The notes below the pieces were generated by a model. The model was given only the letters and a program-made list of their open reading frames with translations, was not told the origin of the DNA and did not search any database. The translations under genes and the position numbers were made by a program. From NCBI GenBank assembly GCA_046728175.1, contig JBKPEA010000005.1:12795-76794 (forward strand): a stretch of DNA of 64,000 nt, in the 5' to 3' direction. The stretch comes from Thermodesulfobacteriota bacterium (GTDB lineage Bacteria > Desulfobacterota > Binatia > Binatales > Binataceae). Shown here piece after piece: positions 3,227 to 64,000 of this stretch. The first letter of the stretch is position 1, and each line of letters starts with the position of its first letter.

Positions 3227-3650
3227 TCATGCTGCGGCGGTATATTTGCCCAATACGAAATTCCATCCGCCGTCGTAACTCTTGCCTGCCGCGGTGGCCT
3301 TGGCCCCCACGTCCCAGCCGCGGTGCTCCACTTCCACGCGCGTCGCGTTGCCTTCCGCGAACGAACCGAACCTCGACTTCGGTCGGACCTTCCCAGTCCG
3401 GGTCCTGCCAGGTGAACACGATTCGAGCAGCTCACGCGCGGTCACGTGTCCGACTATGAATTCCTCGCCATCGGTGAAACGCTCATAAAAGCGGCCACCC
3501 TTTCGCGTTTCCAGGTAGATTTCCTCGGCCCGCTCACGCCCGAAGTGAAAAACTTTCTTTCAGGGGCCACCATGAACCGATGTGCTTCGTAAACAAGCTG
3601 AACGCGTCTTCCAAGGGGCGTTTCACAGTCACCAATTTTCTTACCGTCAT
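3227..3650 (-). pseudogene. SRPBCC (AHSA1/polyketide-cyclase-like) family protein, frameshifted
   Basis: N-terminal MTVRKLVTVKRPLEDAFSLFTKHIGSWWPLKE in one frame, continues RFYERFTDGEEFIVGHVTARELLESCSPG...RVEVEHRGWD in another; shift in gaaagaaagttttt run near 3560. Confidence 0.6.
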
Positions 3651-3681
3651 CGCGCTCTATTTCACCGGGGGAATTTTGGTA

Positions 3682-3712
3682 GAGAATATGTAACCTTTAG
3701 TTACATATTCTC
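3682..3712. promoter_or_regulatory. Perfect 13-bp inverted repeat (GAGAATATGTAAC-ctttA-GTTACATATTCTC), candidate operator in divergent intergenic region
   Basis: Seen directly; AT-rich palindrome between divergent SRPBCC gene (-) and Kelch lipoprotein operon (+). Confidence 0.35.
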
Positions 3713-3947
3713 AAGACCCTACATCAACGCCGTCCGGGGGGGAGTAAGCTCCGGTACCAATCCACCTCTTCCTGACCGGCGAATAACCCTGTCCTACCAT
3801 GCCAACTGGCTCTTCCGCGGGCTGCGGCAGCTAGTCGCGATCCGATGGGAGCAGTTCGGAACGCGGCAAAACCGCCTTTTAACCTTGGCGTAAGCGGCCT
3901 ATTATTCCGCCGGTCAGTCCAATGATTTTTCGAGGGGGGAGTTTCTT

Positions 3948-7446: not shown

Positions 7447-8278
7447 CCCGGCGGCGTTCTTCCTGATGGTTAACCCCACCAGCCCAGCGGTCGGGTACTA
7501 TCTGTTGTCGGTGGCAGACGGAGTCCGCTTTTGCGGAAGTTCAAGCGGCGTTCCTGAAACATCAGGTGCTGTTCTTCCGTGACCAGGAGTTAAATCGAGA
7601 TCGGCAAAGAGCATTTGCGCGGCGCTTCGCCACCCTGAACATCCATCCCTTCGATCAGCCGCTCAAGGATGAAGGCTATCCGGAATTCGTCGTGTTCCAG
7701 AGGGACCAGCAATACCCGTATGTCGCGCAGGCGCGGCACGCTGACTTGACATGCTTACCTGAGCCGCCGCTGGATTCGGTGCTGCGATGCGTGGTCGCGC
7801 GCCACCGCTCGGCGGCGATACGATGTGGGTGAGCATGTGTGCGGCTTACGAGGCGCTCCCGGACAAGATGCAGCACCTGCTCTCCGGGCTAATCGCAATT
7901 CACGATACCAGGCGAGTGTTCGGTCTGTCGGCGGATATCGTCGCGAGGAGATCAGCGACAGCGAGGGAGACAGGCTGCGCAGCATGTCCGCGGAGCATCC
8001 GATGGTTCGCACCCATCCTCAAAGCCGTCGCAAAGGGCTGTTCGTCAACTGGCACTTCACCGCCTCGATCAAGGCATGAAATCCGCGGAGAGTGCGGCGC
8101 TGCTGAACTTTCTTTATCGTCACATCGAACTGCCAGATTTCATTTGCCGCTTCCGATGGCAAAGGGACTCGGTGGCGATGTGGGCAATCGCTGCACCCGG
8201 CATCGCGCGGTCGGCGACAATTGCTCCGCGGAACGTCGCCTCGAGCGCGTGACAATCAACGGCGACAAGCCGTTCTAG
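7447..8278 (+). pseudogene. TauD/TfdA family Fe(II)/2-oxoglutarate dioxygenase, multiply frameshifted
   Basis: TauD-like segments spread over three frames: AEVQAAFLKHQVLFFRDQEL, WHTD-like HADLTCLPEPPLDSVLRCVVA, PPLGGDTMWVSMCAAYEALPDKMQ, EHPMVRTHPQSRRKGLFVNWHFT, CTRHRAVGDNCSAERRLERVTINGDKP; at least four frame changes. Confidence 0.7.
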
Positions 8279-26327: not shown

Positions 26328-27434
26328 TTACCTAGGGCGTCGTCGGAAGTTGGGTCCGAAGATGAGACCGGTAGGTGCATTTAGCGTGGTGGCGGACCCA
26401 ATCAGGAAGGTCCCCGGATTTACCGCGCCACTCCCCGTGAGCTGCCCAGCTTTAAAGATCGCGGTGCTCTTGTTGGCATCATCGGAAACGACCAGATCGC
26501 CCAAGTTGTTAAAACTGACTCCTTGCGGGTCCGCGATGGTGACACCAACCCTGGTCATCAAGGGGGTGAGCTGAATCGCGGGGGCCGGGGTGCCACTCGC
26601 CGTCAAGGAACTGGCGACAAACTCCACCACCAAGGGTCCAGAATAATGCCCTCGTTCGAGAACCAGGTCACCAGCCGTGTCGAAGACCAGGCCCCATGGC
26701 CCGTCGATGCTTGCGAATGTGGGATTGGCGTTGGAGCTCAGCCGTGGGACTTCCATACCCCCGGAGGTTGGAATGTGGGCGCTGTTAACCACGAATATCT
26801 GCGCGGCGCCGTTGTCGGCCAAATACAAATTCCCCCTTACTGAACGCCAGTCCCACGATCCCGGTGGAACCGCTGATTTGGAATACCGCTGCAGGCACTA
26901 GTCCGGTCCCGCTTACCGAGGTCAATTGGGCCGTGGTGAAAAGGAATATTACATTCACCCCCGGGTCGGCGACGTACAGGTTGCCAACCCTGTCAAACAC
27001 GCCGAACTGAGGAAAGACGAACGGGGCACACCGCCGGAATTCGTAATCGCGAACGTCGGTGTCGGCGAGTCGTTGGTACGGAGAGATCTCAGTCGGGCAT
27101 TGCTGAACGTGAAGACCCCTTCGGTGGTATCTCCCGTGCCATCGCCGAGGTCGACGACCCACAGATTGTTGTGAGTGTCAAAGACCGTATCCTGCGGAGA
27201 AAAGAACGAGCCGCTCATATTGATCAAACTCGGCTTCGGACTGGTGACGCTCCCGCTCGAAGTCTGCCCGCCTGAGAACTCCGGAACGGTCGAACCGCCA
27301 CTGTTTGCCTCCCACAGTCCGGTAGTTACGGTCTGGGCCAGAGTCCTGTGAGCGCTCGACGCGAGCAAAAATCTCCCGACGAGTACGGTTACGCCGATGC
27401 GCCAGAATTCCGTGCGTATTGATTGCTCGAGCAT
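26328..27434 (-). pseudogene. NHL-repeat beta-propeller secreted protein, frameshifted into three ORFs
   Basis: Signal peptide at 27434 ORF; repeated NLWVVD / NLYVADPG / DLVVSDD NHL-like motifs continue across ORFs 26955-27434, 26785-27162 and 26328-26828 in different frames. Confidence 0.5.
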
Positions 27435-30470: not shown

Positions 30471-32561
30471 TTACATAAACTCACAGATATCCGCAGCGGT
30501 CTCGTCCGCGGCGTGTACCTCGCGCGAAATGTCCGGCTTCGAGAATCTGGACGACGGCGTTTGGAAGATCGCGTCCTCCGGCTCCGAGATTTCAAACGAC
30601 TGATCGTCTTTCTCCCCTAACGATAGACTTTCCTGTTGAGTTCCGCGAAGCGAGGCTCCCATGTGCTTGACCGCATCCTGGCAGGCGGCCAGGAACAGAC
30701 GCAGAAAGCGACACAGGATCTTGTGTTGCGGCAAAGCCATACCTGAAAGCACTCGATTGCAAATCCGGCGAGCGAGGCCACAGCGGCTGGATAGCCTGGC
30801 CGAGGGATTATTCGGTTCGCTGCATGTGGAAGTGATCAAGCTCTGTAAACCAGGTTGATGATTTAAGTTTGCGATCCGCTGGTTGGTGCATTCGATCTCC
30901 GGGCCTTCGGCCCCGCAGGAATACCGAAATTCCAGTTTGGCCTCAGAACCGTCGCGGTAGCCCTGTATCGTATGAAGCAAGAGTATTACTCGATGTTCTT
31001 TTTCATCGACGTGGTCAAACTTCCAATGGTCGAATTCGGAAATATTACCTGACCGCCGCTCTTCTTCCGTTACGTTTACGTATCCTTCGCTATCAGGCAC
31101 CAACTGAATGGTGCCGTCATTCTGGGCTTTCCAACAAAGTGTCAATGTGCTTGCCCAGAGAAGTCCCCAGCGGCACGGCGAGTATTCCAGTCGCCGTCCT
31201 GGACTAAACGATTTCCCCGTATTGCTGGAATGCCAGCATTCCACGAACCGCGCGAGTATAGCCTGCTGACTGATTTGTGCGGATGGAGATGGCGATGGAA
31301 GCGGGCTCGCCGAGTTTTCCAACGACTGCGTCGGCGGCAGAGAGGGTAGAGCAGCGGATACCAGCTTGTCAGTCGAGGCCGTTTTTGCAATCTCGGCCTG
31401 CGACGGTTGCGGCGTCGAATTGACCTTGCCAATCGCAATCCGTCGCCGCCACGCGGTCGAAGAAAACAGCAGCGTTGCACGAAGTGCGAGGACGAAAAAT
31501 GCAGCAAACGAGAGTGGTAACCACCCGAATCGGCTTTCCGTTCCTCCTCCTAGCAGCGTGCGGCAGTAGGGACAGGCTGTAGCGTCGGCCGGGATCGAAG
31601 GGAGGCAATTTCGACACAAGATCTCATGCACCGAGACCCTGCTGGAGGTATCCTGCACTGACACTGGGCGGCTCGCTCCCGCCGGCCCCCGCTGCAATAC
31701 CATCGTGGGAACATCTGACTGCGGTCCGGCAACAGTCGTGGCGTTTGGCAGACCCTGAGGTCCTCCCTCGATTAACCGCATCCGTCGCCTGAATTCGTGG
31801 GCACTGTGTATGCGCTGATTGACATCATTAGGCAAGCGATTCATCGACGAGTTCCGCGAGAGCGGGACTGATCTTGGGTGCTAGTTCACTCGTCGGCGGA
31901 AAGCTGAACGGTGGCGCGGCCGTTGGGTCGCGCCCGGTCAACAGATGATGCAACGTCGCACCGAGCGCGTAGAGGTGCGAGCGGGCCTCAACCTTTCCGA
32001 AATACTGTTCGGGCGGCGCGTAACCCTGGGTGCCGATCATCGTCGCGGTATTTTAGGCTGGAAGTGACACGAGATGCCGAAGTCCACCATCTTGACCCGA
32101 CCATTGGCTTTAACAATCACATTTGATGGCTTCAAATCGCGGTAGATGATCGGCGGCGTCAGACCGTGCAGGTACTCGAGTGCTTCGAGAACCTGTGTCG
32201 CGACGGCGATCACGAACGTTTCATCCAGCCTGCCGCCAGCCGCAGTCAGCTGCTCGTCGAGCGTCCGTCCTGGCACATATTGCATGACCAGGTAATGCCG
32301 GTTGTTCTCGCTGAAGCGGTCAAAGATTCGCGGGATAAATTCGCTTTCGAGTTCGGCCAAGAGGTCGGCTTCGCGTTCAAAGGCAGCAATCGCCGCCGCC
32401 TGGTCGGAGGGGCGGGTGAAGCTATCAATCATTTCTGCCAGTGCAGCCTGGCGCTTTAGATGCACGTCCTCGACCAGATAGGCGGGCTTCATTCCACCGC
32501 CGCCCAACTCGCGGACAACCCGATAGCGTTCGCCGATCACCGCGCCAGGGTTCAGCATCAA
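30471..32561 (-). pseudogene. Hanks-type Ser/Thr protein kinase with zinc ribbon, TM helix and Cys-rich extracytoplasmic domain; two frameshifts
   Basis: YRDLKPSNV and DFGIS motifs, then frame change in A4 run before IGTQGYAPPEQ, second change before NDVNQRIHSAHEFRRRM; downstream CRNC..CPYC ribbon and TM segment. Confidence 0.6.
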
Positions 32562-38017: not shown

Positions 38018-38078
38018 AGCCGATTCTCCTTTCTCGACCAACACCCAGCGCGTGTTAGACGGCTATTTTTCCACAATC

Positions 38079-38560
38079 GCAATCGCCCCATTTCGAGACG
38101 ACTGAATTGCTCCTGGGTCCATTGAAGATGCTCTTCTTCTTCCGGCTCCACTTCCGAGACGGCTGCGTTCAACACATCGAGAATCTTTGCATCATCGGTT
38201 TGACGGGCGATCTTACCGAGCAACTCCCAATCCGCGTGATCCTTAGTCTCGGCGAGTATGATGTTCTCGATTGCATTGATTTCGGCCGCCCCGCCTGTCA
38301 GCCCATTGGTCATCGTCTTGAGCAGAGCTTCAGCCTTCCTTACTTGGTCGCGATCTTTGCTCCCGAACTAATGTATTAGGATCCAGGCCGAGCTGCCGGA
38401 TGACTCGGGTCAGGATCGTTTCATGCTTTCGCGTCTCCCGAAACAGAGCGGAACCTCTTCTAGAGCAGCAATCACTATGCCATCTTGAGTCTATCACTAC
38501 TCTTTGGAAACGAACCGAACTTATTTGTGGAACCCATCTGCAGGCTTTCAAATGGAGCAT
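38079..38560 (-). pseudogene. DUF892/YciF-like ferritin-like protein, fragmented
   Basis: ETILTRVIRQLGLDPNTL in one frame and KDRDQVRKAEALLKTMTNGLTGGAAEINAIENIILAETKDHADWELL...EEEEHLQW in another. Confidence 0.35.
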
Positions 38561-38795: not shown

Positions 38796-39650
38796 CTACG
38801 ATGGGCGCGCTCGGCCCCGGGAACACCTCGAACGCGTCTGCCCGCCCCTCTCGCGCGAGGGCCCCCGACCGCGGTGGCCAGCTGCTTCCTCCCTATTCGA
38901 AGGCTTCGTGCCCCGCGAGGCCAGCGAATCCTTCAGCGCCTTCATCAGGTCGATCGTCTTAGCAGGTCTTCGCGCAGGCGCGATGGTCAATTCCTCGCCG
39001 GCTACTTTCTCCTTTGCCAGCTTCAGATCCTGCGATAGGTGTCCTCGAATTGCTCGGCCCCGAACTCCTCTTTTGAGAGACCCTCGATCAAACGTTCCGC
39101 AAGCTTTAGCTCCGAACTCTTCAGCGACCTCCTCGCACTCTGCACGATCTCCCTGCACGGCCGGATTTCGTCAGCGTAGTGCATCGTATGTGACATCAAG
39201 ACGTTTTCATAAGGACGAATTAGCGCGAGGTGCTCCTTGCCGCGCATTACCAATTTTGCTAGCGCCGCTCGCCGGCTCTTTGCATGGCAACCTTTAGCAG
39301 GTGGCAGGCTTTGGCACTGGAAGCACTGCATCCCAGGAGATAGGCAGAAACAAAGTACACCGGATCAACCGCCGCCATCGGAATGAACTGCAATATGTCG
39401 ATCTCGCTCCAGACTCGACCTTTTCAGCTCCTTTGTCGTAAAACTGACATACTCCCCCTTTCGAATCTGAAAGCCATGCACCAGTTCGCTGCGCTCGAGG
39501 GCTCCTTCTCCTTGATGCAATAGAGTTATTCGCATATCCGGCTCTTATCTTTCGCTTGGAGCAGGTCGGCGTACAGAGTTCGAGCGAGTCGCCGCAAATA
39601 GTTCGACCGGAATCGAGACGAGCCCAAGGAAGGCTACTTCGTGAGATCGC
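38796..39650 (-). pseudogene. ku: Ku (NHEJ DNA end-binding protein), multiply frameshifted
   Basis: MARKAIS then EVAFLGLVSIPVELFAATRS N-terminus, middle ERLIEGLSKEEFGAEQFEDTYRRI, C-terminal KTIDLMKALKDSLASRG; spread over three frames. Confidence 0.6.
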
Positions 39651-40077
39651 TTTACGCGCCATCCTGGGTCTCCTCTCTTACTGCCAAAAAACTCGCCAAC
39701 TTGGACCGTCTGATTTTTTAATACGTCTCGCCGATTCACCACTTGAGCAAGCTTTTGAAAAAGGTCATCGCATTAAGTCATGTTCGAGCCCGCGATAGCT
39801 TCCTTAGTCCGATATCAACGTCAACTTTTTTTGCACATGACAATTCGCGTTCCAGCGACCAACGCTGCGCTTAGAAACCAAATGACCAGGAACTCTTGCC
39901 ATCAGATTCGATGCGGCACAGTCGGAGTGGGCAGCTATCGGCAAAGGGAGGCTTTCAAACTTGCGCGGTATCTCGAAAGAGCCACGCTAGCCGGTTCGGC
40001 TAAATCCGAAACCGCTCCGCATACGTTTTCTTGAATTCCAACCCGTGGCCGGGCCGAGAGCGGTCGGGTGCGGCCCT

Positions 40078-41045
40078 TCAGTCTCGCGGCCGTACCGCGC
40101 CCTCGAACAACATTCGCTCGATTCGATCGTGATCGTGAAAGAACTCCAGGTGGACCGCGGGCCGGACCGCGCAACACGCATGAACCTGAAGCGCCGGACA
40201 ACAATACGCCGACAGCGGAATCGATCGAGACTCACAAAGCGCCGCGACCCGGAGAAACCCCCTCAACCCCGCGCATCGCGATGCGTCGGCCTGCAAGACG
40301 TCGACCGCGCCGTGCGTGATCATCCGATTGAAATACGGAAGGTCATAATCGTATTCACCCGCCGCGATGTCCATCCCGGCCGGCGCGCGATCCCGCAGCA
40401 TCCGCAACCCATCCAGGTCGTCCGATGACACCGGTTCCTCGAACCAGCTAACACCGAACTCCTGCAACTGCTCGGCCAAGACCAGCGCTTGTTTGCGCTA
40501 GTAAGCCCCATTCGCATCCACGAAGAGAGCGGTCCGCGGTCCGATTGCCTGGCGCGCGGCCCTGACTCTGGCAGCATCCTGATCGGGTTCGCGCCCAATC
40601 TTCATTTTCACTTTCGTATACCCCCCGCCGCCCACTTCCCGAGTTGCTCTTGCAGCCGTGCACGGTCGTACGAAGTGAAACCGCCGCTGCCGTATACTTC
40701 GATGCGATCGCGAGCCGCGCCGAGCAGATCCACCAGGGGAATGATGCTTTCAGGTCCCCCAGCGCCGCATCGACCGCCGCGATCCCATCGAGCAAATTCC
40801 GGGACGTCCGAGATTCCGAACCGCGTGAACCATTGCCGACCAATTGCCGTCAATCTGCATTGCGTCGCGCTCGCGAATCAGGGGGGGCGAGCAGATCATG
40901 GATCACCACTGAAGTGGCGCGGTCCGCGCACGTATAGCCGACACCCCAATGACCCGCGGCTAAGACTTCAACCGTCACTATGGTCGTGGAATCCCACTCA
41001 AGCGTGCCGTCTGACTCTGGATAGTCGGTGGGAATGCGGCAAACG
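40078..41045 (-). pseudogene. Enolase-superfamily enzyme (mandelate racemase/muconate lactonizing family), frameshifted
   Basis: N-terminal RIPTDYPESDGTLEWDSTTIVTVEV, middle IIPLVDLLGAARDRIEVYG, C-terminal GVSWFEEPVSSDDLDGL..IAAGE in different frames. Confidence 0.6.
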
Positions 41046-41098
41046 GTGACCCGTGGTTTCTTCGACTTTGGCGACAGAGCTGCTCATCGCGCGCCGTT

Positions 41099-42840
41099 TC
41101 AGATCAGCTCGCGAATTCGGTCACCGAACACCGTGTACGCGATTTTTTCACGATTCGGCTCGCCCTTGATCAGCGATTCAGCGAAGTGCTTCGCCTGCTC
41201 GAAAGTCACCTTCGCCGGCATTGGCGGCTCAAGAGCATCCACTTCCGCCTCGATCAGGGCGGGACCCGGCTGGGCCAGCGCCTCCTCGAGGATTTGGCCG
41301 CATTGGGTCTGCTCCTTGATTGTGAAGCCCTGCGCCCCGCATGCGCGTGCGTACGCGGCGAAGTCGATCGGTTGAAGATCGACTCCATACTCGGGCACGC
41401 CCAAGAAGACCATCTGCTCCCATTTAATCTGTCCCAAGGTATTGTTCTTGACCACCACGATCTTGACCGGCAGTTGGTACTTCACGCAGGTCACCAGCTC
41501 GGCCATCAACATGGAGAATCCGCCGTCGCCGACAAACGCCACACATTGGCGATCCGGATACGCCACTTGCGCGCCGATCGCATATGGCAGCCCGCACGCC
41601 ATCGTCGCCAGGGTCCCTGACACCGAATGCATTTGGCCACGCTTGACGCGAATATGGCGCGCCCACCACGTGGTGATCGTTCCGGAATCGCAAGTCACGA
41701 TTGCGTCGGAACGCAGCCGCTGCCAAGCTCGTGCGCAACGACTTGCGGTTTCATCGGATGGTCCGCTCGTGTAGCGCGCCGCAACATCAACTCCTCCCAC
41801 TCGCGTGCCCCCTCCTGCGCTTTCTCGAGAAACGAGCGGTCCTCCTTGCGTTTGAGTAACGGGAGTAGAGCATCGAGCGCTTTCCGGCAGTCTCCGACCA
41901 ATCCCGACTCGACCGGATACCGGAGCCCAATACGGACCGCATTCAGATCGATCTGCACGGCGCGCGCCTGATCAGGCTTGGGCAGGAATTCGATGTACGG
42001 AAACGAGCTGCCCACGATTAACAAGGTGTCACAGCTTTCCATTGCATCCTGTGAAGGAGTCGTGCCGAGTAGACCGATTCCGCCTGTCGTGTACGGACTG
42101 TCATCCGGAACGCACGCTTTCCCGAGCAGTGCCTTGACGATCGGCGCGGCCAGCATCTCCGCGGTCTTTTCGAGCTCGTTGCCAGCGCCCAGGGCCCCCG
42201 CGCCGGCAAGAATCGTCACGCGCCTGCCTGCGTTCAGAATTTCGGCAGCCCGCCGCAGGTCATCCGGATTTGGAATCGAACCGGACCCTACAAAGCGCAG
42301 CGAGGTATGATGTGCCAGATTCCGCGCAGATCTCTGCTGCTTCGACATCATCTGCACGTCGGTCGGAATAGTCACGTGCGAAACACTGCGATAGGCAAGC
42401 GCTGTCCGGCACGCCAGATCCGTGACGGTCTCAACATGCTCGACTCCCATGACACGTGCGTTGTACGCGGCGACGTCCATGAAAAGCTTGTCGAGTTCGA
42501 CGTCCTGCTGCGAATGAGTACATAGCAGGTCGTGGTGGTGAAGCCCGGTTATTGCCAATACCGGAGCACCATCGAACTTTGCGTCGTAAAGTCCGTTCAG
42601 AAGATGGATACCGCCCGGGCCGGAAGTAGCGAGGCATACGCCAAGACGCCCCGTGAACTTCGCATACGCGCACGCCATGAGGGCCGCCGCCTCCTCGTGC
42701 CTGACCTGGACAAATCGGACAGTCTCCTGCTTTCTGCGCAGCGCTTCCATGACGCCATTGATGCCGTCGCCCGGCAACCCGAACACGGTATCGACGCCCC
42801 AAGCGACCAGTCTTTCGATGAGGATATCTGCTGCTGTCAT
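41099..42840 (-). pseudogene. Thiamine-diphosphate-dependent pyruvate oxidase/PoxB-like enzyme with one frameshift near 41740
   Basis: 394-aa N-terminal part (GVCLATSGPGGIHLLNGLYDA) and 233-aa C-terminal part (VAFVGDGGFSMLMAEL TPP motif) are in different frames but contiguous. Confidence 0.7.
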
Positions 42841-43119
42841 TTGCTTTCTTGTGAGATACCCAGGTCGAAAGCAAGACACAGGCCCGGTAAAACTGCTTCT
42901 AGACGCCGGTCAATTCGGCGATCACGGGCATTCGGAAGAAATTGCACACTCGCGTATCAAACCGAAATTCTTGTCACTTTTACTCAAACAATCGAATCTC
43001 GACCAAAGCTCACGGTACGCTTGCTTAAGTTTATTTGCTGCGTCGATTCACCGGTTCAGACATAATAAATGCCCCTACTCTTGCTGCTTACCGATCCGCA
43101 TCTGCATTTCCAAAAATCG

Positions 43120-44862: not shown

Positions 44863-44872
44863 CGCCTTCTTC

Positions 44873-45938
44873 TCAGCGTCGAAAGGGCGGAATTTCGGTG
44901 CTGCGAATTCCAGTTCTCATCTGCTGCGGCATTGCTGCTCTGGTGGGCTGATGCGCGACGCGGCGATCGCCTCGAGTGACCTTCTCCTCGCGGCTGAAAT
45001 GCGGGACGATTTTCTCCGAGTAGAAGCGGAAGAAGTCGCGTTGATTGGGCCCCACCTGGTGGACGTATACGTGATCGAAACCCGCATCCATGAATGTCTG
45101 GACTCCAGCGATGTGCGTTTCAGGATCGGGACCGAGAGGCATGCCTTCTGTGATCTTGTCCGGGTCCATGATGGCGATCGCTTCCTCGAAGTGGGACGGC
45201 AGCGGCAGATCGGTCATTAAGTGTCCGCCAATTCCCGGGTTGGACCAGTATTTGCGCACCGCTCCTGCCGCTTCTTCTTCGCTGCGTGCCTAACATACGG
45301 TCAACTGACCGTACCGCGGTTTGCCCAGGCCGCCTGCGCGCTCGAAGCCGCACACGAGCTCTGAATTGGGTTCAAGACTGGTCAGGCCGTCGCCCACCCG
45401 CCCGGCCAGTTCGGCGGCGCCTGGCCTGCTCGCTGCGACCATGATCGAGGGCGGCTCACGGGAAGAGTGAAGATCCGGGGGCGATCGATCGTGAAGTATT
45501 TCCCCTCGTGCGTCTGCCATCCGCCGCGCCACAGCAAGCGAATTGCCGAGATCGCTTCTTCAAGCATCTCGAGCCATTGATGAGGCGTCGGCCAGCGCTT
45601 CCCGGTGATGTGCTCGTTGAGCTGTTCTCCGGTTCCCACTCCGAGAAAGAAGCGGCCAGGCAGCAGCGCGGCTGAGGTAGCCGCACCTTGGGCTACCAGT
45701 GCAGGACTTATCCGCATAGTCGGGCATGTGACCCCAAGCCTGAGCCGTTGCGTCGGCTGTGAAATGCCGCCTATCACGCTCCATACGAAAGGACTGTCCG
45801 GTTGCGGGTTTGTCCAGGATGAAAGTGATCCGAAATCAGCGAGAAATTGAAGCCCGCATCCTCGGCTTCTTGCGCGTAGGTGACGAGATCGGCAGGAGCA
45901 GTCTCCTCGCTGGAAAGAGAATATCCAAGTTCGGTCAT
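44873..45938 (-). pseudogene. LLM-class F420/flavin-dependent oxidoreductase (luciferase-like), fragmented in three or more frames
   Basis: MTELGYSLSSEE..FNFSLISDHFHP, RLRLGVTCPTMRISPALVAQ, FFLGVGTGEQLNEH, DHVYVHQVGPNQRDFFRFYSEKIVPHF segments in different frames. Confidence 0.6.
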
Positions 45939-49727: not shown

Positions 49728-50229
49728 CAACTTCCAGCAATTCGCTTGATCGACACGCGTTCAGCGCTCGTCCGGCTCGTCGCGCCAGCAAGAATTTCCC
49801 GGTTCACACCGCCTCGAGCCGGATTGGAAAACCCGACGCCTAGGTCAGGCCTGAGCAGGGCAGTTGCTCAGGTTTCCTCCTCAGACGCACAGAGTGTCAA
49901 ATGGCAAGAGCAAACACTGACCACAATAGCACTCAAAGATCGGCGTCACGCGACCGTAGACAAACGCCGATTTGGCAGGAGTGGCTACACGATTTCCTGT
50001 TAGAGATGCTCGCAGTCGAAATAGACGGCTTAAAGCTTTACGAAAAAAGATCAGCGAAATCCATCATACGGAATTTGTAAATAGGCTCACCGAATTTCTT
50101 CACCAGACAGATTCCATGTTGAAGTATGTACAGAAATGTTGACCGCGTCTGGAGCGAGCGCCGACTATCGGAGCGCGGGTGCTGAAGCGGCCGATCACAA
50201 GGCTCAAGGACTCATCTCCACTAAGCTAC

Positions 50230-50514
50230 CGCTAAGGTACCGCACGAGCTGACCGACCTGAACAACATCGAAAATCTAGTCCTCGCCGAGACCAAGGATT
50301 ATTGGAACTGGGAGACGCTCGCATCGCTCGAAAAGAAGATTGCGATCCCGAGCTGAGGGGCATGGTCCCTCGAGCAGTCCGCGAGGTGCGCGCACAAGAA
50401 AAGACTCATCTGCACTGGAACGAGCGCACTCTTACCACCTTGGCAATGGAAGCAGCGATGAAGGGGCCGGCAGTCGTCGAAACCGAAGCTACGGAGCATA
50501 CTGACTTGGGCTAA
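50230..50514 (+). pseudogene. Second degraded DUF892/YciF-like fragment (paralog of the 38079-38560 remnant)
   Basis: NIENLVLAETKDYWNWETL and EKTHLHWNERTLTTLAMEAAMKG parallel the AIENIILAETKDHADWELL / EEEEHLQWTQEQFSRLEMG segments of the other copy. Confidence 0.3.
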
Positions 50515-56196: not shown

Positions 56197-57472
56197 CTAT
56201 ACGGGTCGGCTGAACCAACCGGACGTAAGGACGAGCGGACGCGGAGACCGCCTCTTCAGGCGATCTCCGCAAGGTTGCGTTTCGTCAGTCCTTCTTGGGA
56301 TAGAGCCCGGGCCAAACAGATCGGAGAGATCGTTCGTGCCAGCAGTGGCGGCATCACCCAAGTACGGCTGCCCCACGTGGAAAATATTCTCCATGGCGCG
56401 CAGGTCGGAGGAATGCGTGAAGTTGACCGGGCTGGCAAATGGCTTACCGCCACTCTGGCGGGCATCCTCCGAGATGATTATTTCACCGATGGTGTGATCG
56501 AAGTCATCGGCGTTGTCGCCCGAAACGCCATCCTGTTCGGATTCGTCGAACCAGATGATTATTACGCCGTGGTCCTGGTAGGCCTTCGACGCCATAATCA
56601 TCGGAATGACTAAGCTAAGGAAGTTGTCTCCCTGCCGGATCTTCGCCGCGTCGCCCGTGAGGCCCTGGAACCCCCGTCAGCGTGGTGTGCATATCGTTGT
56701 ACTGGTCGGGTGTGATCCAGTTGTAATCGGCCACAGCGTCATTGGCCAGGTCGGCGGCCAGTTGCTGTAGTGGCGCATATTGCAAGCGCATCGGATTCGA
56801 AGTGCTGAAATCACAACTGCCATTGGTATCGTCGAAAAAGACCATCGGGTTGTGCTTGGCAGCGTAGTTGAATTGGTTGGAGCCGTTGTAGGCGTTGGTG
56901 CCGGACGCAAAGATCCCTAAGAAGCTCTGCAGCGGCACAGTCCAATCGCTTTGGGGTTCGACCGCATTGTCGAGCGTGGCTCCGTCCGGGGTCAGATCGA
57001 TGTCCTCCTGGTACGACTTCCAGGTTTTTCCGGCATTAGTGATGAAGGTGGCAAGATGCTGGGTGGTGTTCTGGACCGTAGGGGCACCATTGGTGCCGCA
57101 CGGATCGTCGTCATTGAGCACGCCAAAATTGGTGCCCGCCTCCGACCATAAGTAGTTTGGCTCGGAAGGATGGATGTGAAGATTGTTGCCGGTCGAGGTG
57201 GCCAGGACGTTGTGATACGCGGTGGCGTACGACACCTGACCGCTGATCGACGAGGTTCCGTTCACGAGGCTGTTGATATAGGGTGCGTCAGGGTTCTGGA
57301 AAATCTGCTGAATGCCGCCGGTGAATTGATTCGCGGGCTGTGCCCAATTGTGGTTTTCCATCGCAATAACGAAAACGGTCTTGACGTTATCGGCCCAAGC
57401 GCCGCTGAAACCGCCAAGCCACAGGAGCAGGGTGCACATACCAACGATGTGCAGACGTCTGGAGTGCTGCAT
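56197..57472 (-). pseudogene. PF04185 phosphoesterase family (AcpA/phospholipase C-like), one frameshift in a G5 homopolymer
   Basis: Signal peptide, VFVIAMENHNW, HPSEPNYLW; ...YNDMHTTLTG then frame change at ggggg (~56650) into FQGLTGDAAKIRQGDNFLSLVIPMIMASKAYQDHGVIIIWFDESEQ. Confidence 0.65.
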
Positions 57473-57797: not shown

Positions 57798-58133
57798 TTA
57801 AGGTGCATTTAGGCGGCGGAATTTCTTCTCCGCGATGGTCAGGATCTTCCAGATCAGCGCCTCGGCATTGGCGACCTTCTTGTAGCGGCGGGCGGCGTCG
57901 GTTCGCAGCCGCACCGCCGGGAACGGCGACTCCACCACGTTGGTGGTGCGCAGATGGATCCAGTGACCTTTGGGAAAGCGATAAAAGGTCACCATCCGTT
58001 CCCAGTCGCAGCTCAGCGTCCGGACCGCCTTAGTGTAAGGCTTGCGATAACGGGCGGCACATTCGCCTCCTATAGTAACCAAGACAAGTTTTCGCGGTCT
58101 GGTCATGAAGGCTAAAAACTTGTATTGTGCCAA
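57798..58133 (-). mobile_element. IS256 (Mutator) family transposase, C-terminal fragment only
   Basis: DWERMVTFYRFPKGHWIHLRTTNVVESPFPAVRLRTDAARRYKKVANAEALIWKILTIAEKKFRRLNAP matches the IS256 transposase C-terminus; no N-terminal part or inverted repeats found. Confidence 0.6.
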
Positions 58134-59999: not shown

Positions 60000-61150
60000 T
60001 GCTCGTCTGCTCGAGCAGCGCCTTGGCGTCCTTCAGGTCGGCGGTGTCGAAGCCCTCAGTGAACCAGTTGTAGATTTCGGCGAGCATCGTGCGTGCCTCG
60101 TCACGTTTACCTTGCTTGGCCATAAGCCGCGACGAGCCTGGTGGTCGCCCCCAGCTCCCACCATTTCGCCGATTGGAGCCTGGCGATTTCGATGGCCTTG
60201 CGAAAGAAGGCTTGGGCTTCGTCCGTCGCAGAGGAATCGCGCATCAGAATCGCTTCGCCCATAAAGACCCGACTCTTGGCGGCCTATTCCCAACTATTCA
60301 ACTCTGGCAAGCACCTCGTCGACCAGTGCAAGAGCCTTGTCGGCGCGGCCGACGCGTGCGTAGACCCCCGGAAGCACGAACTGGCGTGCGGGCGAAAAAG
60401 CGGAAGCCGCCTCCAATTCGGCGACTCCCTCCTCCGTCTGACCAAGCTCGGTCATCGCCCACCCCCTGAGCGCCCGACCCACTAGCAAGCGTTCTTGAAA
60501 GCCGTATTCCTCGCCAAGCGCGATAGTTGCTTCGGCCAACTCTCGCGTAGCCTGGGGCTCGCGCCCGGTAAGCATGCACTTCTCCAGCCAACGGAATCAC
60601 CAAGGCGAGCGTGGGGGCGTGCTTGAGTTGACGGGCGCGGCTCAGTGCCTCGTTGCTCAGCCGGAGAGCCTAATCAGGTTTGCCGAGCGCCAACTGGACT
60701 CGAGCGAGTTGTCCGGGAGCCGTAGCCCATGGATTGGTCGGCAGAAGTTCAGCTGCAGCCCGCAGCTGCGCCGATCCCAAAGTCTTCATTAAATCGCTGA
60801 GCTGCGAAGAGGCCAGGAGCAGATCGCCGGACCCGTAGGCGCCCATCGCAAGCATATTGAACGAAGGGAAGCATCTCTCGGTTCTGATTCCGTTCGGCAA
60901 GTTCCAGACATCGCCTGGCGATCTCGAGGCAGCGGACCACCTCCCCGCGGTTGCCGCCTGACTGAGCTTCGCGATGAGATCGGAAAATGCGATCGAGGAA
61001 TACATTCGGAAACACTGTCCGGCTGGCGCCTCGGCGAGATGAAGGCCTTGCAATGGCGCGACAGTACCGCGTGAGCGCGCTCCAGAATTGGCAAGTGCTC
61101 TGCGCGAAATTCAAAACAGAGAACCCCCGCCGCGGTCGCGTTCATTGCTG
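60000..61150 (-). pseudogene. C-terminal TPR region of a large AAA+/STAND-type signalling protein (remnant, frameshifted, N-terminus absent)
   Basis: Terminal MAKQGKRDEARTMLAEIYNWFTEGFDTADLKDAKALLEQ motif typical of AAA-TPR (adenylyl-cyclase/LuxR-associated) proteins; upstream TPR-like segments in two other frames; truncated by the csoR region. Confidence 0.45.
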
Positions 61151-61228
61151 ATCATCGAAATGCTTTCGCGCCGCTGTGGACTTCATTCGAAGCCGGTGCT
61201 ATACCGTACCCCGTAGGGTATAACGATC

Positions 61229-61507: not shown

Positions 61508-61514
61508 GGCTGTC

Positions 61515-63476
61515 ATGGAGCGCTCCACGGAAATAATGACTCCGGAGGAGCAGACCGCGGAGGTCCGCCAAGACTTTCGCGAGCATGAAACTCACGGCTT
61601 CGGATGGGTCGAAGCCGTACGGTTTCTCGGCGTCGCGACGGCGGCGGTGCTGGTGCGATTTCAGCTCGGCGAGCCGATACCGCACGTGAGCCTGATCGGG
61701 ATTGCCGGCGTACTGATCGGTGGATGGCCAATCTTCAAGGAAGCGGCACAGAATATCCCAGGCAGCCGGATGACCATGGAGCTGTCCATGAGCATCGCGA
61801 TCCTGGCGGCCGCCGCCATTTCCGAGTTTTTCACCGCCCTGATCATCATCTTGTTCGTGCTAGCCGCCGAAGTCTTGGAAAATCTCACGGTATCCCGCGG
61901 CCGCCGCGCGATTCGGGATCAACTGGAGCTGCTTCCCACTTCGGTTACGGTCCGTCGCGCCGGAAAAGTTTCCGAGGTTGATGGGAGTGACCTTCGAATC
62001 GGCGATTCGGTCTTGGTGAATCCGGGGGGAGCGATTCCAGTCGACGGCGTGGTCATCAGCGGGCACTCAATCGTCGATCAATCCAGGATAACCGGCGAGT
62101 CGATACCAGCGGAGAAAGTGCGCGGAGCGCTCGTTTACGCAGGGAGCGTGAACCAGTCGGGCGCGCTGGAAATTGCCACTCATCGAATCGGCCGCGATAC
62201 CAGCTACGGCAAGATCATCGAGGCAGTCGAAGCCGCTGAGCGCTCGCGAGCCCCGGTGCAACGTCTGGCTGATCGTTTGGCCAGCTACCTCGTCTGTTTT
62301 GCGGTCGCGGCGGCGGCTCTGACGTTCCTGCTCAGCCATGACATCCGCTCGACCATCTCGGTGATTATCGTAGCCGGTGCATGTGGGATCGCAGCGGGCA
62401 CGCCACTGGCAATCCTGGGAGGAATCGGACGCGCGGCGCGGCGCGGTGCGATCGTAAAGGGAGGACTGTACCTGGAGATTCTTGGGCGCGTGAATACAGT
62501 GGTGCTGGACAAGACTGGGACGTTGACTTTTGGCCGAGCCGTCGTGCAGGCGGCTCTTCCATTCGGCGGGATGTCGGAGAGCGAGTTGATTTCCAGCGCT
62601 GCAACGGCGGAATTGCGCTCCGAACATCCGCTGGGCAAGGCGATTGTCTCCTACGCCACGGCCAAAGGGATCGCGGTAAAGGAGCCCGAGCGCTTTGACT
62701 CCAGCCCCGGGCTCGGAGTCGTTGCCCGAGTCGGCGCTGCGACGATTCTCGCGGGAAATCGCCATTTGATGAGCGAACATAAGATCCTGATTCCACCAGA
62801 TTCAGGATCAGGCATCGGCGGCGTTTCAGAGGTGATGGTCACGAGGAATGGCAAATTCCTCGGCGCAATCGCGATCGCCGACGCGGTTCGGCCGGAGGCG
62901 CGGCACGCCATCAAGGAGTTTGACCGCATGGGGATCGGGACGCTGCTCTTGACCGGCGACGCCGAGCCGGTAGCGAAGGATATCGCCGCTCAGCTCGGGA
63001 TGATGGAATTTGCGGCCGAGCAGCTGCCCGAGGAGAAAGTGGCGCGAATCAGCCATCTGAAGCAGTCGGGACGCGTGGTCGCGATGGTCGGCGACGGAAT
63101 CAACGATGCGCCAGCCTTAACTGCGGCGAACGTGGGAGTGGCGATGGGCTCGGGAACCGACGTCGCGCAAGAGAGCGCGGGCATTGTGCTGCTGGGAAAT
63201 GACCTGCGCAAATTCGCGGAGACCGTGGAAATCGCCCAGTGGACGCGAAGGATTATCTGGCAGAACTTCGCCGGGACTATCGTGGTCGACCTGGCCGGGA
63301 TGGCACTGGCGGCCGCAGGTCTGCTTGACCCGAGCGTGGCGGCGTTCATTCACGTCGCCTCTGAAATGACTTTCATACTTAACTCTGCGCGGCTGCTGCC
63401 GCGAATGGACCGGAGCGCGACGAAACCAGCGACGGCTGTTGAGTCAGAGGACGGCACTCTCGCGAAGGCGGCTTAG
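61515..63476 (+). CDS. P1B-type heavy-metal-translocating P-type ATPase (no N-terminal metal-binding domain, atypical TM6 motif)
   Basis: DKTGTLT, GDGINDAPAL, TGES, 8 TM topology; TM6 reads VIIVAGACGIAAGTPLAI instead of the CPC/SPC/CPH motif. Confidence 0.85.
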   Translation: MERSTEIMTPEEQTAEVRQDFREHETHGFGWVEAVRFLGVATAAVLVRFQLGEPIPHVSLIGIAGVLIGGWPIFKEAAQNIPGSRMTMELSMSIAILAAAAISEFFTALIIILFVLAAEVLENLTVSRGRRAIRDQLELLPTSVTVRRAGKVSEVDGSDLRIGDSVLVNPGGAIPVDGVVISGHSIVDQSRITGESIPAEKVRGALVYAGSVNQSGALEIATHRIGRDTSYGKIIEAVEAAERSRAPVQRLADRLASYLVCFAVAAAALTFLLSHDIRSTISVIIVAGACGIAAGTPLAILGGIGRAARRGAIVKGGLYLEILGRVNTVVLDKTGTLTFGRAVVQAALPFGGMSESELISSAATAELRSEHPLGKAIVSYATAKGIAVKEPERFDSSPGLGVVARVGAATILAGNRHLMSEHKILIPPDSGSGIGGVSEVMVTRNGKFLGAIAIADAVRPEARHAIKEFDRMGIGTLLLTGDAEPVAKDIAAQLGMMEFAAEQLPEEKVARISHLKQSGRVVAMVGDGINDAPALTAANVGVAMGSGTDVAQESAGIVLLGNDLRKFAETVEIAQWTRRIIWQNFAGTIVVDLAGMALAAAGLLDPSVAAFIHVASEMTFILNSARLLPRMDRSATKPATAVESEDGTLAKAA

Positions 63477-63482
63477 TTTATT

Positions 63483-64000
63483 GTGGATTACTCCGGAGTT
63501 CAGCCATGGAACACAAGTAAAACTTCTCACCTCGAACTGTCCGAACTGCGTGCCAAGCTCAGCCGAATGGGAGAACTGGTCATCGATAAGCTCGAGCGAG
63601 CGCTCGGGTGCCTGAAGGAACACAATGTTCGCGACGCTCGCGTGGTTACCGAGCGGGATATCAATGTGAACAGAATGGATATTGACTTGGAAGAGATGTG
63701 CGTTCCTTGCCCTGCATCAGCCGGTGGCCGGGAGACCTCCGGCTCATAACCGCAGCGATGAAGATTACCACCGAACTGGAGCGAATCGGCGACCGGGTAG
63801 TCGACATTTGCAACGGTGTTCACCAGCGCGGCGGCGAGGACCCGATCGAATCGGCATACCGACATCTCTCGACTAGGAGCACTTGCAGCCGCGATGATTC
63901 GCGATAGCATGAACGCATTTTCTGAGGCGGATATCTTGCTGGCCAAGAAAGGTTCCACAGAGACAAGGAGTTTGATGCACCACCTTGGCCTCGAGAGGAC
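63483..64000 (+). pseudogene. PhoU domain protein, two frameshifts within ~30 nt near 63700-63740 (runs off window end)
   Basis: LSRMGELVIDKLERALGCLKEHNVRDARVVTERDINVNRMDIDLEEMC, then ALHQPVAG, then DLRLITAAMKITTELERIGDRVVDI in three frames; GTG start 7 nt after the ATPase stop. Confidence 0.5.

What the first reader, a model, noticed from the sequence alone, without database searches (positions are those of the whole stretch)
3227..64000. Unusually high density of frameshift-interrupted genes, clustered in the second half of the window
At least 14 genes have recognisable family signatures split across two to four reading frames:
- SRPBCC protein (3227-3650);
- TauD dioxygenase (7447-8278, four or more shifts);
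- NHL-repeat protein (26328-27434);
- nitronate monooxygenase (29391-30420);
- Ser/Thr kinase (30471-32561);
- DUF892-like protein (38079-38560 and 50230-50514);
- Ku (38796-39650);
- enolase-superfamily enzyme (40078-41045);
- PoxB-like TPP enzyme (41099-42840);
- LLM oxidoreductase (44873-45938);
- PF04185 phosphoesterase (56197-57472);
- TPR/STAND remnant (60000-61150);
- PhoU (63483 onward).

Meanwhile many long genes are intact (653, 603, 537, 526, 508 aa). Some shifts sit in homopolymers (ttttt near 3560, aaaa near 32040, ggggg near 56650). Others do not (about 41740 and about 63700-63740). This could be genuine gene decay in an accessory or decaying region, homopolymer-type sequencing error, or both. 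It strongly affects how every call in this window should be trusted.
Basis: seen in the sequence. Interest (0 to 1): 0.55.

Follow-up and report, generated by a model that had tools for sequence, protein, structure and literature searches.

The report
Real decaying genes, not sequencing errors
About a quarter of the recognisable genes in this 64-kb piece of an uncultivated soil-type bacterium (probably Binataceae) are genuine broken genes that recur unchanged in other public assemblies; it is ordinary gene decay at unusually high local density, not a sequencing artefact.

Summary
Observation confirmed. I add one more, a transposase remnant.

I mapped about 43 frameshifts, 5 in-frame stop codons and 3 truncated remnants in 15 pseudogenes. 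Lesions per gene range from 1 (TPP enzyme, phosphoesterase) to 7 (Ku).

The lesions are real:
- Three JGI metagenome contigs cover 22.6 kb of the window at 99.93-99.99% identity. They share every lesion, and the only indel difference is one G tract (G5 versus G6).
- A second JGI sample shows the same split gene calls.
- 34 of the 43 frameshifts are not near a homopolymer.
- 36.6 kb of interleaved intact genes, with the same homopolymer density, carry no lesion (P about 1e-15 under a uniform rate).

Thirteen of the 15 pseudogenes lie in 26-64 kb, a lower-GC stretch where about 45% of recognisable genes are dead.

Caveats:
- The lesion spectrum is frameshift-rich.
- Relative-rate tests show no excess amino-acid change, so the decay looks recent or indel-driven.
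- Whether the assemblies come from independent reads could not be checked.

One in-frame TGA (UGSC gene, 7120-7122) is selenocysteine, not a lesion.

The parts
3230..3650 (-). SRPBCC/AHSA1-family pseudogene with 3 frameshifts (junctions 3555-3559, 3425-3431, 3355-3360)
   Evidence: The fragments give no Pfam hit. The repaired 146-aa sequence hits PF08327 at 3-117/125, E 9e-10. It also hits the SRPBCC structures TxnO9 and CalC. No second assembly is available for this locus.
7482..8275 (+). TauD/TfdA dioxygenase pseudogene with 5-6 frameshifts (about 7791, 7922-7986, 8071, 8184)
   Evidence: Pfam fragments are consecutive in four frames. Lesion map.
26328..27434 (-). NHL-repeat beta-propeller pseudogene with 2 frameshifts (27021-27030 at a C4 run; 26833-26834 at a 5-nt C/G run)
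   Evidence: The blade motif continues across frames 1, 0 and 1. NHL hit. Identical in JGI contig L162.
29391..30420 (-). Nitronate monooxygenase pseudogene with 2 single-nt frameshifts (about 30244 and 29766), neither at a homopolymer
   Evidence: Pfam coordinates 12-76 | 106-207 | 207-317 lie in three frames. Lesion map. Identical in L162.
30471..32561 (-). Ser/Thr protein kinase pseudogene with 2 frameshifts inside the kinase domain (about 32050 at an A4 run; about 31845)
   Evidence: DFG, APE and subdomain XI lie in frames f2, f1 and f2. Pkinase covers 1-150 in the fragment and 1-198 with 119 bits when repaired. The same three gene calls (173, 70 and 457 or 386 aa) appear in two JGI samples.
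38059..38459 (-). DUF892/ferritin-like pseudogene a: 2-3 frameshifts, and the N-terminal 55 or so codons are missing
   Evidence: 72-76% identical to intact 182-187-aa homologues. The N-terminus aligns no better than shuffled controls.
38805..39668 (-). Ku pseudogene: 6 frameshifts plus an in-frame TAA at 39526-39528
   Evidence: Frameshift-aware alignment to the Ku ORF of L090, 55% identity. Positions 38956-39668 are identical in L161.
40003..41050 (-). Enolase-superfamily (MR/MLE) pseudogene: 4 frameshifts (40885 in a G7/C7 run, 40781, 40737, 40609) plus TAG 40498-40500 and TGA 40078-40080
   Evidence: Alignment to the syntenic intact ORF of L081, 73% identity. MR_MLE_C hit. Identical in L161.
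41102..42849 (-). PoxB-like TPP enzyme with a single 1-nt deletion at 41720-41721 (context GGCAGCGGC, no homopolymer)
   Evidence: 85% identical over 582 residues to the intact 603-aa ORF of L081, with one lesion only. Pfam N and M domains versus C domain lie in two frames. Identical in L161, and the same split calls appear in sample 3300041966.
44969..45935 (-). Luciferase-like monooxygenase pseudogene: 2 frameshifts (45817, 45458) plus an in-frame TAG at 45290-45292
   Evidence: Alignment to ORFs of L023 and L001. Pfam fragments. The window up to 45163 is covered by L161. The lesions at 45290-45817 lie beyond L161, and only the split gene calls of the 9882-bp contig of sample 3300041966 cover them.
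49970..50479 (+). DUF892/ferritin-like pseudogene b, a diverged paralogue (40% identity) with 4-5 frameshifts
Evidence: Alignment to P0046 and P0049.
56284..57472 (-). PF04185 phosphoesterase with one lesion, in a G tract at 56667-56671
   Evidence: 89% identical over all 397 residues to intact P0166. Homologues read T-G-G-F, which would need a 7-nt G stretch. The window has G5 and JGI contig L163 has G6, so both are out of frame.
57798..58133 (-). Mutator/IS256-family transposase remnant; only the C-terminal 80 or so residues remain
Evidence: PF00872 positions 297-374 of 379 only. Also called in L163.
60007..61110 (-). C-terminal TPR remnant of a large regulator: at least 3 frameshifts, an in-frame TAG at 60670-60672, and no N-terminal domains
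   Evidence: Three-frame reading and junctions. The STAND or cyclase identity of the missing part rests on memory only. Present in L163 with one SNP.
63534..64000 (+). PhoU pseudogene running off the window end, with 3 frameshifts (63703, 63733, 63820-63861)
   Evidence: Pfam 1-49 | 61-87 lie in different frames. The same 88, 69 and 70-aa calls appear in two JGI samples.

Best explanation
The window is chromosomal DNA of an uncultivated bacterium, probably Candidatus Binataceae. At least 15 of about 54 recognisable genes are true pseudogenes.

Shown: the lesions are in the DNA of the population, not in one assembly. They sit in dispensable accessory genes and spare the interleaved genes.
- Dead genes: Ku, two DUF892 stress proteins, TauD, NMO, LLM, a TPP-enzyme/enolase gene pair, a kinase, an NHL protein, a TPR regulator, PhoU, SRPBCC, a phosphoesterase and a transposase.
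- Intact genes in between: LpxD and the lipid A/LPS genes, the P-type ATPase, DUF72, CHAD and the three LigD genes.

Shown: genes stand at different stages of decay.
- One lesion in otherwise 85-89% conserved genes (TPP enzyme, phosphoesterase).
- Three to seven lesions (LLM, SRPBCC, PhoU, TauD, enolase, Ku).
- Truncated stumps (DUF892a, TPR remnant, transposase).

Inferred: selection on these genes was relaxed. Small indels (about as many 1-nt insertions as deletions), a few nonsense mutations and larger deletions then accumulated and were fixed before the sampled strains diverged (at least 99.9% identity).

Inferred: the process is ongoing and stepwise. In the syntenic TPP-enolase pair the enolase gene has six lesions and the TPP gene one, as expected if loss of one step made the other useless.

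The 26-64 kb part, with lower GC, an IS remnant and 7-8 kb without recognisable genes, behaves as a decaying accessory region.
For: 1. Reproducibility.
- L161 equals window 38956-45163 with 1 mismatch and 0 gaps.
- L162 equals window 24963-33079 with 1 mismatch and 0 gaps.
- L163 equals window 55752-64000 with 5 mismatches and 1 indel.
- Contigs of a second JGI sample, 3300041966, have collinear and equally split gene calls.
- 56 of 57 homopolymer runs of 5 or more agree between assemblies.

2. Lesion types that indel errors cannot make.
- Five in-frame stops aligned to sense codons of homologues.
- Three truncated remnants.

3. Distribution.
- 48 lesions fall in 14.0 kb of 14 genes, and none in 36.6 kb of 38 intact genes with equal homopolymer density (8.3 against 8.0 runs of 4 or more per kb).
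- P(no hit in the intact genes) is 9e-16, and simulations never hit fewer than 20 genes.

4. Sequence context.
- 34 of 43 frameshifts have no run of 4 or more within 4 nt.
- No sequence motif is shared by the sites.

5. Intact close homologues exist.
- Phosphoesterase: P0166, 397 aa, 89% identity.
- TPP enzyme and enolase are adjacent and intact in L081 and in the Binataceae MAG locus L002.
- DUF892: intact homologues of 182-187 aa.

6. The ratio of insertion-type to deletion-type shifts, about 19:24, matches natural bacterial pseudogenes (0.76-0.94; PMC6054270).
Against: - Relative-rate tests show no excess amino-acid substitution on the window lineage in any tested pseudogene: enolase 23 against 22, TPP 26 against 34, phosphoesterase 11 against 10, DUF892a 10 against 6, LLM 19 against 35.
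- Frameshifts outnumber in-frame stops 43 to 5. From my own knowledge, typical base-substitution to indel ratios would give more stops and more substitutions per indel.
- I could not establish that the NCBI contig and the two JGI samples come from independent reads or from short-read chemistry. No metadata were available and no paper mentions the samples.
- SRPBCC, TauD and DUF892b have no second assembly.
- Exact indel positions are uncertain by a few to about 20 nt where homologues are distant.
- Single-lesion genes (TPP enzyme, phosphoesterase) could still work as split proteins.
Confidence: 0.85

Rival explanations
1. Sequencing or assembly artefact: the frameshifts are uncorrected indel errors (long-read or homopolymer type, or patches left unpolished), and the genes are intact in the organism.
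For: - Many purported bacterial pseudogenes are assembly errors (PMC11017572).
- The lesion spectrum is dominated by 1-nt indels, 43 against 5 stops.
- The broken genes show no accelerated protein evolution, which is what errors laid over functional genes would look like.
- One G tract differs between assemblies (G5 against G6).
- Independence of the read sets was not verified.
Against: - Three other contigs covering 22.6 kb share every lesion, with only one indel difference, and a second sample has the same split calls.
- 79% of shifts are not at homopolymers.
- 68 runs of 5 or more in intact genes are all in frame.
- Lesions alternate with flawless genes on a 1-2 kb scale (P about 1e-15).
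- In-frame TAA, TAG and TGA codons and truncated remnants are not indel errors.
- Both versions of the G tract are out of frame.
Confidence: 0.07
2. Mixed case: the multi-lesion genes are dead, but some single-lesion genes (TPP enzyme, phosphoesterase) are either still functional as two polypeptides, or switchable through slippage in the G tract (a phase-variation-like switch).
For: - The TPP enzyme and the phosphoesterase are 85% and 89% identical to intact homologues and carry one lesion each.
- The TPP break lies between the middle and C-terminal domains.
- The phosphoesterase lesion is a G tract whose length differs between near-identical strains.
- The three LigD domains show that naturally split genes exist here.
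Against: - Neither observed G-tract length (5 or 6) is in frame, and no in-frame variant was seen.
- The tract is short for a contingency locus.
- The TPP break has a 100-nt frame overlap rather than a clean stop/start junction of the kind LigD has (ATGA overlaps).
- The TPP enzyme's operon partner, the enolase-family gene, is clearly dead.
Confidence: 0.2
3. Recoding: the interruptions are read through by programmed frameshifting or stop-codon reassignment, so the genes are expressed.
For: One in-frame TGA in the window is a genuine recoding site: the UGSC-family gene, with TGA at the U of the U-G-S-C motif and a hairpin 3 nt downstream.
Against: - The 43 shift sites share no slippery motif.
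- The shifts go in both directions.
- They occur up to six times per gene.
- All three stop codons occur, at positions where homologues have Thr, Gly, Trp/Tyr or other sense residues.
Confidence: 0.02

Closest known systems
Multi-lesion pseudogenes of bacteria under relaxed selection (Candidatus Burkholderia leaf-nodule symbionts, PMC6054270; Mycobacterium leprae and Sodalis glossinidius from my own knowledge and the abstract of PMC7067036)
   Same: - Several independent small indels per gene.
- Insertion and deletion counts nearly balanced (0.76 in PMC6054270 against about 0.8 here).
- Pseudogenes interleaved with intact genes.
- Different ages of decay.
- Low local coding density.
   Different: - Here the organism is an uncultivated, presumably free-living environmental bacterium, and only 64 kb are seen.
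- There is no IS expansion, only one remnant.
- No measurable acceleration of amino-acid change.
- Few nonsense mutations relative to frameshifts.
Artefactual pseudogenes from assembly errors (Cooley and Wright 2024, PMC11017572)
   Same: Genes interrupted mainly by 1-nt indels in a draft, metagenome-derived assembly. This is the default suspicion for any MAG.
   Different: - The lesions are reproduced in other assemblies.
- They are not tied to homopolymers.
- They are extremely clustered by gene.
- They are accompanied by stop codons and truncations.
Decaying accessory region or failed horizontal acquisitions (the idea of Lerat and Ochman 2005, from my own knowledge)
   Same: - Lower GC than the neighbouring core genes.
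- An IS remnant.
- Accessory metabolic, regulatory and stress genes.
- Patchy synteny with relatives: in L081 the LigD polymerase gene abuts the TPP gene, whereas here three genes lie between them.
   Different: - No integrase, tRNA or flanking repeat was found.
- Two pseudogenes also lie in the core-like first 26 kb.
- A foreign origin for the region was not demonstrated.

Membership tests
Bacterial pseudogene | Homology to one protein family continues across reading frames or across in-frame stops | tested here: met
   Pfam coordinates are consecutive across frames.
Bacterial pseudogene | Intact full-length homologues exist in relatives | tested here: met
   The TPP enzyme and the enolase-family gene are intact and adjacent in L081 and L002. 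The phosphoesterase has P0166, 397 aa, 89% identity. DUF892 has intact homologues of 182-187 aa. Ku has an intact homologue in L090 and LLM in L023.
Bacterial pseudogene | Lesions are present in the organism's DNA, shown by recurrence in other assemblies or in reads | tested here: met
   Shown at the DNA level for the whole or most of 9 of the 15 loci, plus the downstream end of LLM (no LLM lesion is covered), over 22.6 kb. Shown at the gene-call level in a second sample, which also covers DUF892a and the LLM fragments. Not available for SRPBCC, TauD and DUF892b. Independence of the read sets is unknown.
Bacterial pseudogene | Signature of relaxed selection (excess non-synonymous change) | tested here: not met
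   Tajima relative-rate tests show no excess on the window lineage in five genes. Power is limited, and dN/dS is not computable with homologues this distant.
Bacterial pseudogene | No functional product | not testable with these tools
   This needs transcriptomics or proteomics.
Homopolymer-type sequencing or polishing error | Indels sit in homopolymer runs | tested here: not met
   9 of 43 frameshifts lie within 4 nt of a run of 4 or more (4.2 expected). 4 of 43 lie near a run of 5 or more.
Homopolymer-type sequencing or polishing error | Errors spread over all sequence in proportion to length and homopolymer content | tested here: not met
   There are no lesions in 36.6 kb of intact genes with equal run density. 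P is 9e-16, and 14 genes are hit where 30 are expected.
Homopolymer-type sequencing or polishing error | Not reproducible between assemblies | tested here: not met
   One indel difference in 22.6 kb, and 56 of 57 runs of 5 or more are identical.
Selenocysteine recoding (applies only to the in-frame TGA codons) | TGA at a position where family members have Sec or Cys, followed by a stem-loop | tested here: met
   Met for the UGSC gene only: TGA at 7120-7122 in 'D-U-G-S-C-T', PF24696 hit, and a 13-bp hairpin 3 nt downstream. The enolase TGA at 40078 aligns to Gly in homologues, so it is not recoding.
Phase-variable contingency locus (phosphoesterase G tract) | Tract length varies between strains and includes in-frame (ON) lengths | tested here: inconclusive
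   The length varies, G5 against G6, but both are out of frame. Homologues imply a 7-nt stretch or an interrupted one. No ON variant was seen.
Genome-wide reductive evolution (M. leprae or Sodalis type) | High pseudogene fraction over the whole genome | not testable with these tools
   Only 64 kb were seen: 8% of genes in 1-26 kb and about 45% in 26-64 kb. Neither the source genome nor a close relative was found in the genome collection (best 76% amino-acid identity).

The most novel reading that the evidence does not exclude
This window may be a sample of lineage-wide, ongoing genome decay in a free-living environmental Binataceae population. The mutation spectrum would be dominated by 1-nt indels at non-repeat sites, for instance scars of mutagenic end-joining in long non-replicating phases. 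The bacterium's own Ku gene is now among the casualties, while its LigD genes survive. That would be a rare case of reductive evolution caught early outside a host, and would give a natural data set on indel-driven gene death.
Probability: 0.15. Interest if true: 0.6.

Novelty: new member of a known kind. Interest (0 to 1): 0.3.

Why it matters
Practically, frameshifted genes in metagenome-assembled genomes are usually written off as assembly errors. Here they can be shown to be real, so the gene calls of this contig should be annotated as pseudogenes rather than repaired. Metabolic or repair capacities inferred for this lineage should be discounted: taurine/sulfonate dioxygenase, nitronate monooxygenase, the TPP-enzyme/enolase pair, Ku-dependent end joining and PhoU.

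Biologically, 45% dead genes over 38 kb in an environmental bacterium is unusual. The graded series from one lesion to a stump documents stepwise loss, including an operon partner that followed its neighbour into decay. The frameshift-rich, substitution-poor spectrum is a small open question about how genes die in slow-growing soil bacteria.

Tried and rejected
- **Codon-usage frame plot.** I tried it to find frame switches without homology. Codon bias was too weak and the plot too noisy, so I dropped it.
- **Chimeric query.** I concatenated four repaired genes into one query for the search for homologous proteins. The word pre-filter favoured long fusion proteins and returned only 8 NMO hits, so one search was wasted.
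- **Collection scans.** Scans of genome contigs and metagenome contigs with the TPP fragment found no near-identical relative (best 76% and 83%). They did supply intact syntenic homologues.
- **Exact look-ups.** Five intact ORFs were not on record. For the one with a comparison available (the 603-aa ORF, called as 577 aa) a different start call explains it; one search shows an amino-acid SNP in the 468-aa ORF; the other misses are unexplained.
- **Motif search around the 43 shift sites**. GATC occurs 10 times against 4.6 expected (P 0.014, uncorrected over about 650 k-mers). Nothing survives correction, so a methylation-motif or slippery-site explanation was rejected.
- **tRNA and Rfam scans** for island borders or recoding elements: nothing found.
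- **Pfam on ORFs of the unassigned stretches**: only CsbD.
- **Literature search** for the JGI sample numbers and for Binatia pseudogenes: nothing found.
- **LigD as a frameshift-split gene.** I considered this for the three LigD ORFs and rejected it. Each is a complete domain with an ATGA stop/start overlap, and a relative with at least 90% identity has the same 333-aa ligase.
- **UGSC TGA as a lesion.** I considered this and rejected it in favour of selenocysteine.

Full report
**What the window is.**
- GC falls from 0.61-0.63 in the first 22 kb to 0.52-0.58 between 26 and 60 kb.
- Exact-sequence look-ups show that the proteins encoded here are on record from one NCBI contig of 79,495 bp and from several JGI/IMG metagenome contigs.
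- The LpxD protein clusters at 90% identity or more with a Candidatus Binataceae MAG protein.
- The best genome hits for the TPP enzyme are Binataceae MAGs at 75-76% amino-acid identity, one with the same TPP-enolase gene pair.
- The organism is therefore probably an uncultivated member of the Binatia. No near-identical genome is in the genome or metagenome collections that I could scan by pattern.

**Checking the observation.**
For TauD, NMO, the luciferase-like monooxygenase, the TPP enzyme and PhoU, successive fragments in different frames match successive parts of the same profile.
- For Ku, the enolase-family gene, the kinase, the phosphoesterase and the NHL protein, only one fragment scored. 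The SRPBCC, DUF892 and TPR fragments scored nothing.
- I then joined the fragments at the junctions suggested by the sequence and rescanned. TauD became one hit over profile positions 23-267 of 267 (185 bits against 51 for the best fragment). Ku gave 2-176 of 190 (100 against 39), PhoU 1-87 of 89 (83 against 27), the kinase 1-198 of 263, and the phosphoesterase 67-297 of 356. The SRPBCC sequence now hit AHSA1 (E 9e-10).
- The repaired TauD, NMO, SRPBCC and PhoU sequences align contiguously with solved structures: 1gqw E 2e-51, 5lsm E 6e-94, TxnO9/CalC E 2e-8, 1t72 E 6e-20.
- The repaired 'DUF892-like' sequence finds 189 homologues.
- All 14 loci are confirmed.

**Mapping the lesions.** I wrote a protein-to-DNA aligner that allows frameshifts and stops, and ran it with the closest intact homologues available.

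| Gene | Homologue used | Lesions found |
|---|---|---|
| TPP enzyme | ORF of L081, 85% identity | one missing nucleotide at 41720-41721 in GGCAGCGGC |
| Enolase-family gene (adjacent) | next ORF of L081, 73% | four frameshifts plus TAG 40498-40500 and TGA 40078-40080 |
| Ku | L090 ORF, 55% | six frameshifts and a TAA |
| LLM | L023 and L001 ORFs | two frameshifts and a TAG |
| Kinase | L007 ORF | two shifts that put the APE-containing 70 residues out of frame |
| DUF892a | P0046, P0049 | two or three shifts; N-terminal 55 or so codons lost |
| DUF892b | P0046, P0049 | four or five shifts over 49970-50479 |
| TauD | 1gqw (its N-terminal 28 residues from memory) | five or six shifts |
| NMO | 5lsm | two shifts |
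| Phosphoesterase | intact 397-aa P0166, 89% over full length | one lesion, in a G tract |
| SRPBCC, NHL, TPR remnant, PhoU | read from the three-frame translations | three, two, at least three (plus a TAG), and three junctions |

A Mutator-family transposase survives only as its last 80 or so residues. In total I count about 43 frameshifts, 5 in-frame stops and 3 truncated remnants in 15 pseudogenes.

**Are they real?** Four independent lines say yes.
1. *Other assemblies.* Exact look-ups of intact neighbours and of fragments retrieved JGI contigs from sample 3300079549.
   - L161 matches window 38956-45163 with one mismatch and no gap.
   - L162 matches 24963-33079 with one mismatch and no gap.
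   - L163 matches 55752-64000 with five mismatches and one indel.
   - Contigs of sample 3300041966 gave no DNA, but their gene calls are collinear and equally split over 35.8-45.7 kb, over the 25-35 kb stretch that holds the kinase, NMO and NHL fragments, and from 60.7 kb past the window end.
   - In the 22.6 kb shared at the DNA level, 56 of 57 homopolymer runs of 5 or more agree.
2. *Sequence context.* Only 9 of 43 frameshifts lie within 4 nt of a run of 4 or more (4.2 expected), and only 4 near a run of 5 or more. No k-mer is convincingly enriched at the sites.
3. *Distribution.* Thirty-eight intact genes totalling 36.6 kb, with the same homopolymer density as the pseudogenes, have no lesion. 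Under a uniform rate the probability is 9e-16. Simulated lesions hit 30 genes on average and never fewer than 20, against 14 observed. Broken and flawless genes alternate every 1-2 kb.
4. *Lesion types.* Stop codons aligned to sense residues, and truncated stumps, are not indel errors.

**The one assembly-to-assembly indel is instructive.** The window has G5 and L163 has G6 in the phosphoesterase. Intact homologues read T-G-G-F there, which would need seven nucleotides in that stretch. Both strains are therefore out of frame, by different amounts. This fits a dead gene whose tract keeps slipping. It could also be a miscounted run in one assembly, but in neither case is the gene intact.

**What does not fit neatly.**
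- Tajima relative-rate tests against the nearest homologue, with an outgroup, show no excess amino-acid change on the window lineage: enolase 23 against 22, TPP 26 against 34, phosphoesterase 11 against 10, DUF892a 10 against 6, LLM 19 against 35.
- Frameshifts outnumber nonsense codons about 9 to 1.
- The decay phase has therefore been short in substitution terms and rich in 1-nt indels.
- The balance of insertion-type to deletion-type shifts, about 19:24, is like that of natural Burkholderia pseudogenes and mutation-accumulation lines (0.76-0.94; PMC6054270), so the spectrum is not exotic in that respect.
- I regard this as recent, indel-driven decay. It is also the feature an artefact would produce, which is why I leave 7% on the artefact rival. 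It is also why read-level confirmation is the decisive next step (the context is PMC11017572).

**Wider anatomy.**
- The first 26 kb carries 23 intact genes with full-length Pfam matches and two pseudogenes. The intact genes include thiolase, PhzF, a Kelch protein, GT9, LpxD, inositol-phosphate synthase, CrcB, MscL, an MFS transporter and an M20 peptidase.
- The stretch from 26 to 64 kb carries 16 intact genes, 13 pseudogenes and 7-8 kb without recognisable genes. Its intact genes have GC 0.576 against 0.616 in the first part.
- No tRNA, Rfam element, integrase or bounding repeat marks an island.
- The dead genes have no common function. They are accessory enzymes, regulators and stress or repair proteins.

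**Things that look like lesions but are not.**
- The UGSC-family gene (6784-7362) has an in-frame TGA exactly at the U of its U-G-S-C motif, followed after 3 nt by a 13-bp hairpin. This is selenocysteine.
- LigD is encoded as three ORFs in successive frames that align collinearly with a fused 918-aa LigD of other bacteria. Each is a complete domain joined by ATGA overlaps, and a relative has the same 333-aa ligase. This is a natural split.

**Verdict.** The 'genuine decay' reading is supported and the 'homopolymer error' reading is not. The phenomenon is known in kind. Its local density, and the fact that it can be verified in a metagenome-derived genome, make it mildly interesting.

Noticed in passing
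window 6784-7362 (+), TGA at 7120-7122: A UGSC-family (PF24696) gene has an in-frame TGA at the U of its 'U-G-S-C' motif. A 13-bp hairpin (GGGUCGUGCACGA...UGUGCACGACUCC) starts 3 nt downstream. This is a probable selenoprotein that ORF finders split in two.
   Followed up: partly
window 46502-49052 (-): LigD is encoded as three separate ORFs with ATGA stop/start overlaps: phosphoesterase 48411-49052, ligase 47413-48414 and Prim-Pol 46502-47416. They are collinear with a fused 918-aa LigD in L090 and L091. All three are intact, although Ku, 7 kb away, has 7 lesions.
   Followed up: partly
window 56667-56671; L163 position 10803: The phosphoesterase G tract is G5 in the window and G6 in a 99.93%-identical JGI contig. 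Intact homologues imply 7 nt. It is the only indel difference in 22.6 kb of shared sequence.
   Followed up: yes
window 57798-58133 (-): C-terminal remnant of a Mutator/IS256-family transposase (profile positions 297-374 of 379). It is the only mobile-element trace in the window.
   Followed up: partly
window 54069-54368 (+): An ORF fragment contains 'EGERKTVTALFANIKGSMDL', which resembles the start of a class III nucleotide cyclase domain. That resemblance is from memory only, and there was no Pfam hit. It may be another truncated remnant.
   Followed up: partly
window 37838-38017 (-), 51289-51702 (+), 51803-52006 (+): Small stress-type genes (DUF6496-like, BON domain, CsbD) are intact and sit among the dead Ku and DUF892 genes. 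This looks like a partly decayed stress or dormancy gene neighbourhood.
   Followed up: no
window 40003-42849 against L081 and L002: The TPP enzyme and the enolase-family gene are adjacent in relatives. Here the enolase gene has 6 lesions and the TPP gene 1, which suggests sequential loss within one operon. In L081 the LigD polymerase gene abuts the TPP gene, whereas here DUF72, CHAD and the LLM pseudogene lie between them.
   Followed up: partly
window 62829, 58773, 55765: The three SNPs between the window and JGI contig L163 that fall in intact genes all change the amino acid (ATPase E439Q, 468-aa ORF N95I, MlaC N3T). The number is too small to interpret.
   Followed up: partly
window 27435-29390, 49053-49969, 50480-51288, 54131-55070 and smaller gaps: About 7-8 kb of the second half has no recognisable gene (no Pfam hit on the longest ORFs). 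It may be older, unrecognisable gene remains.
   Followed up: partly
whole window: GATC occurs 463 times against 400 +/- 18 in dinucleotide-preserving shuffles. This is a mild excess and is not linked to the frameshift sites after correction.
   Followed up: partly
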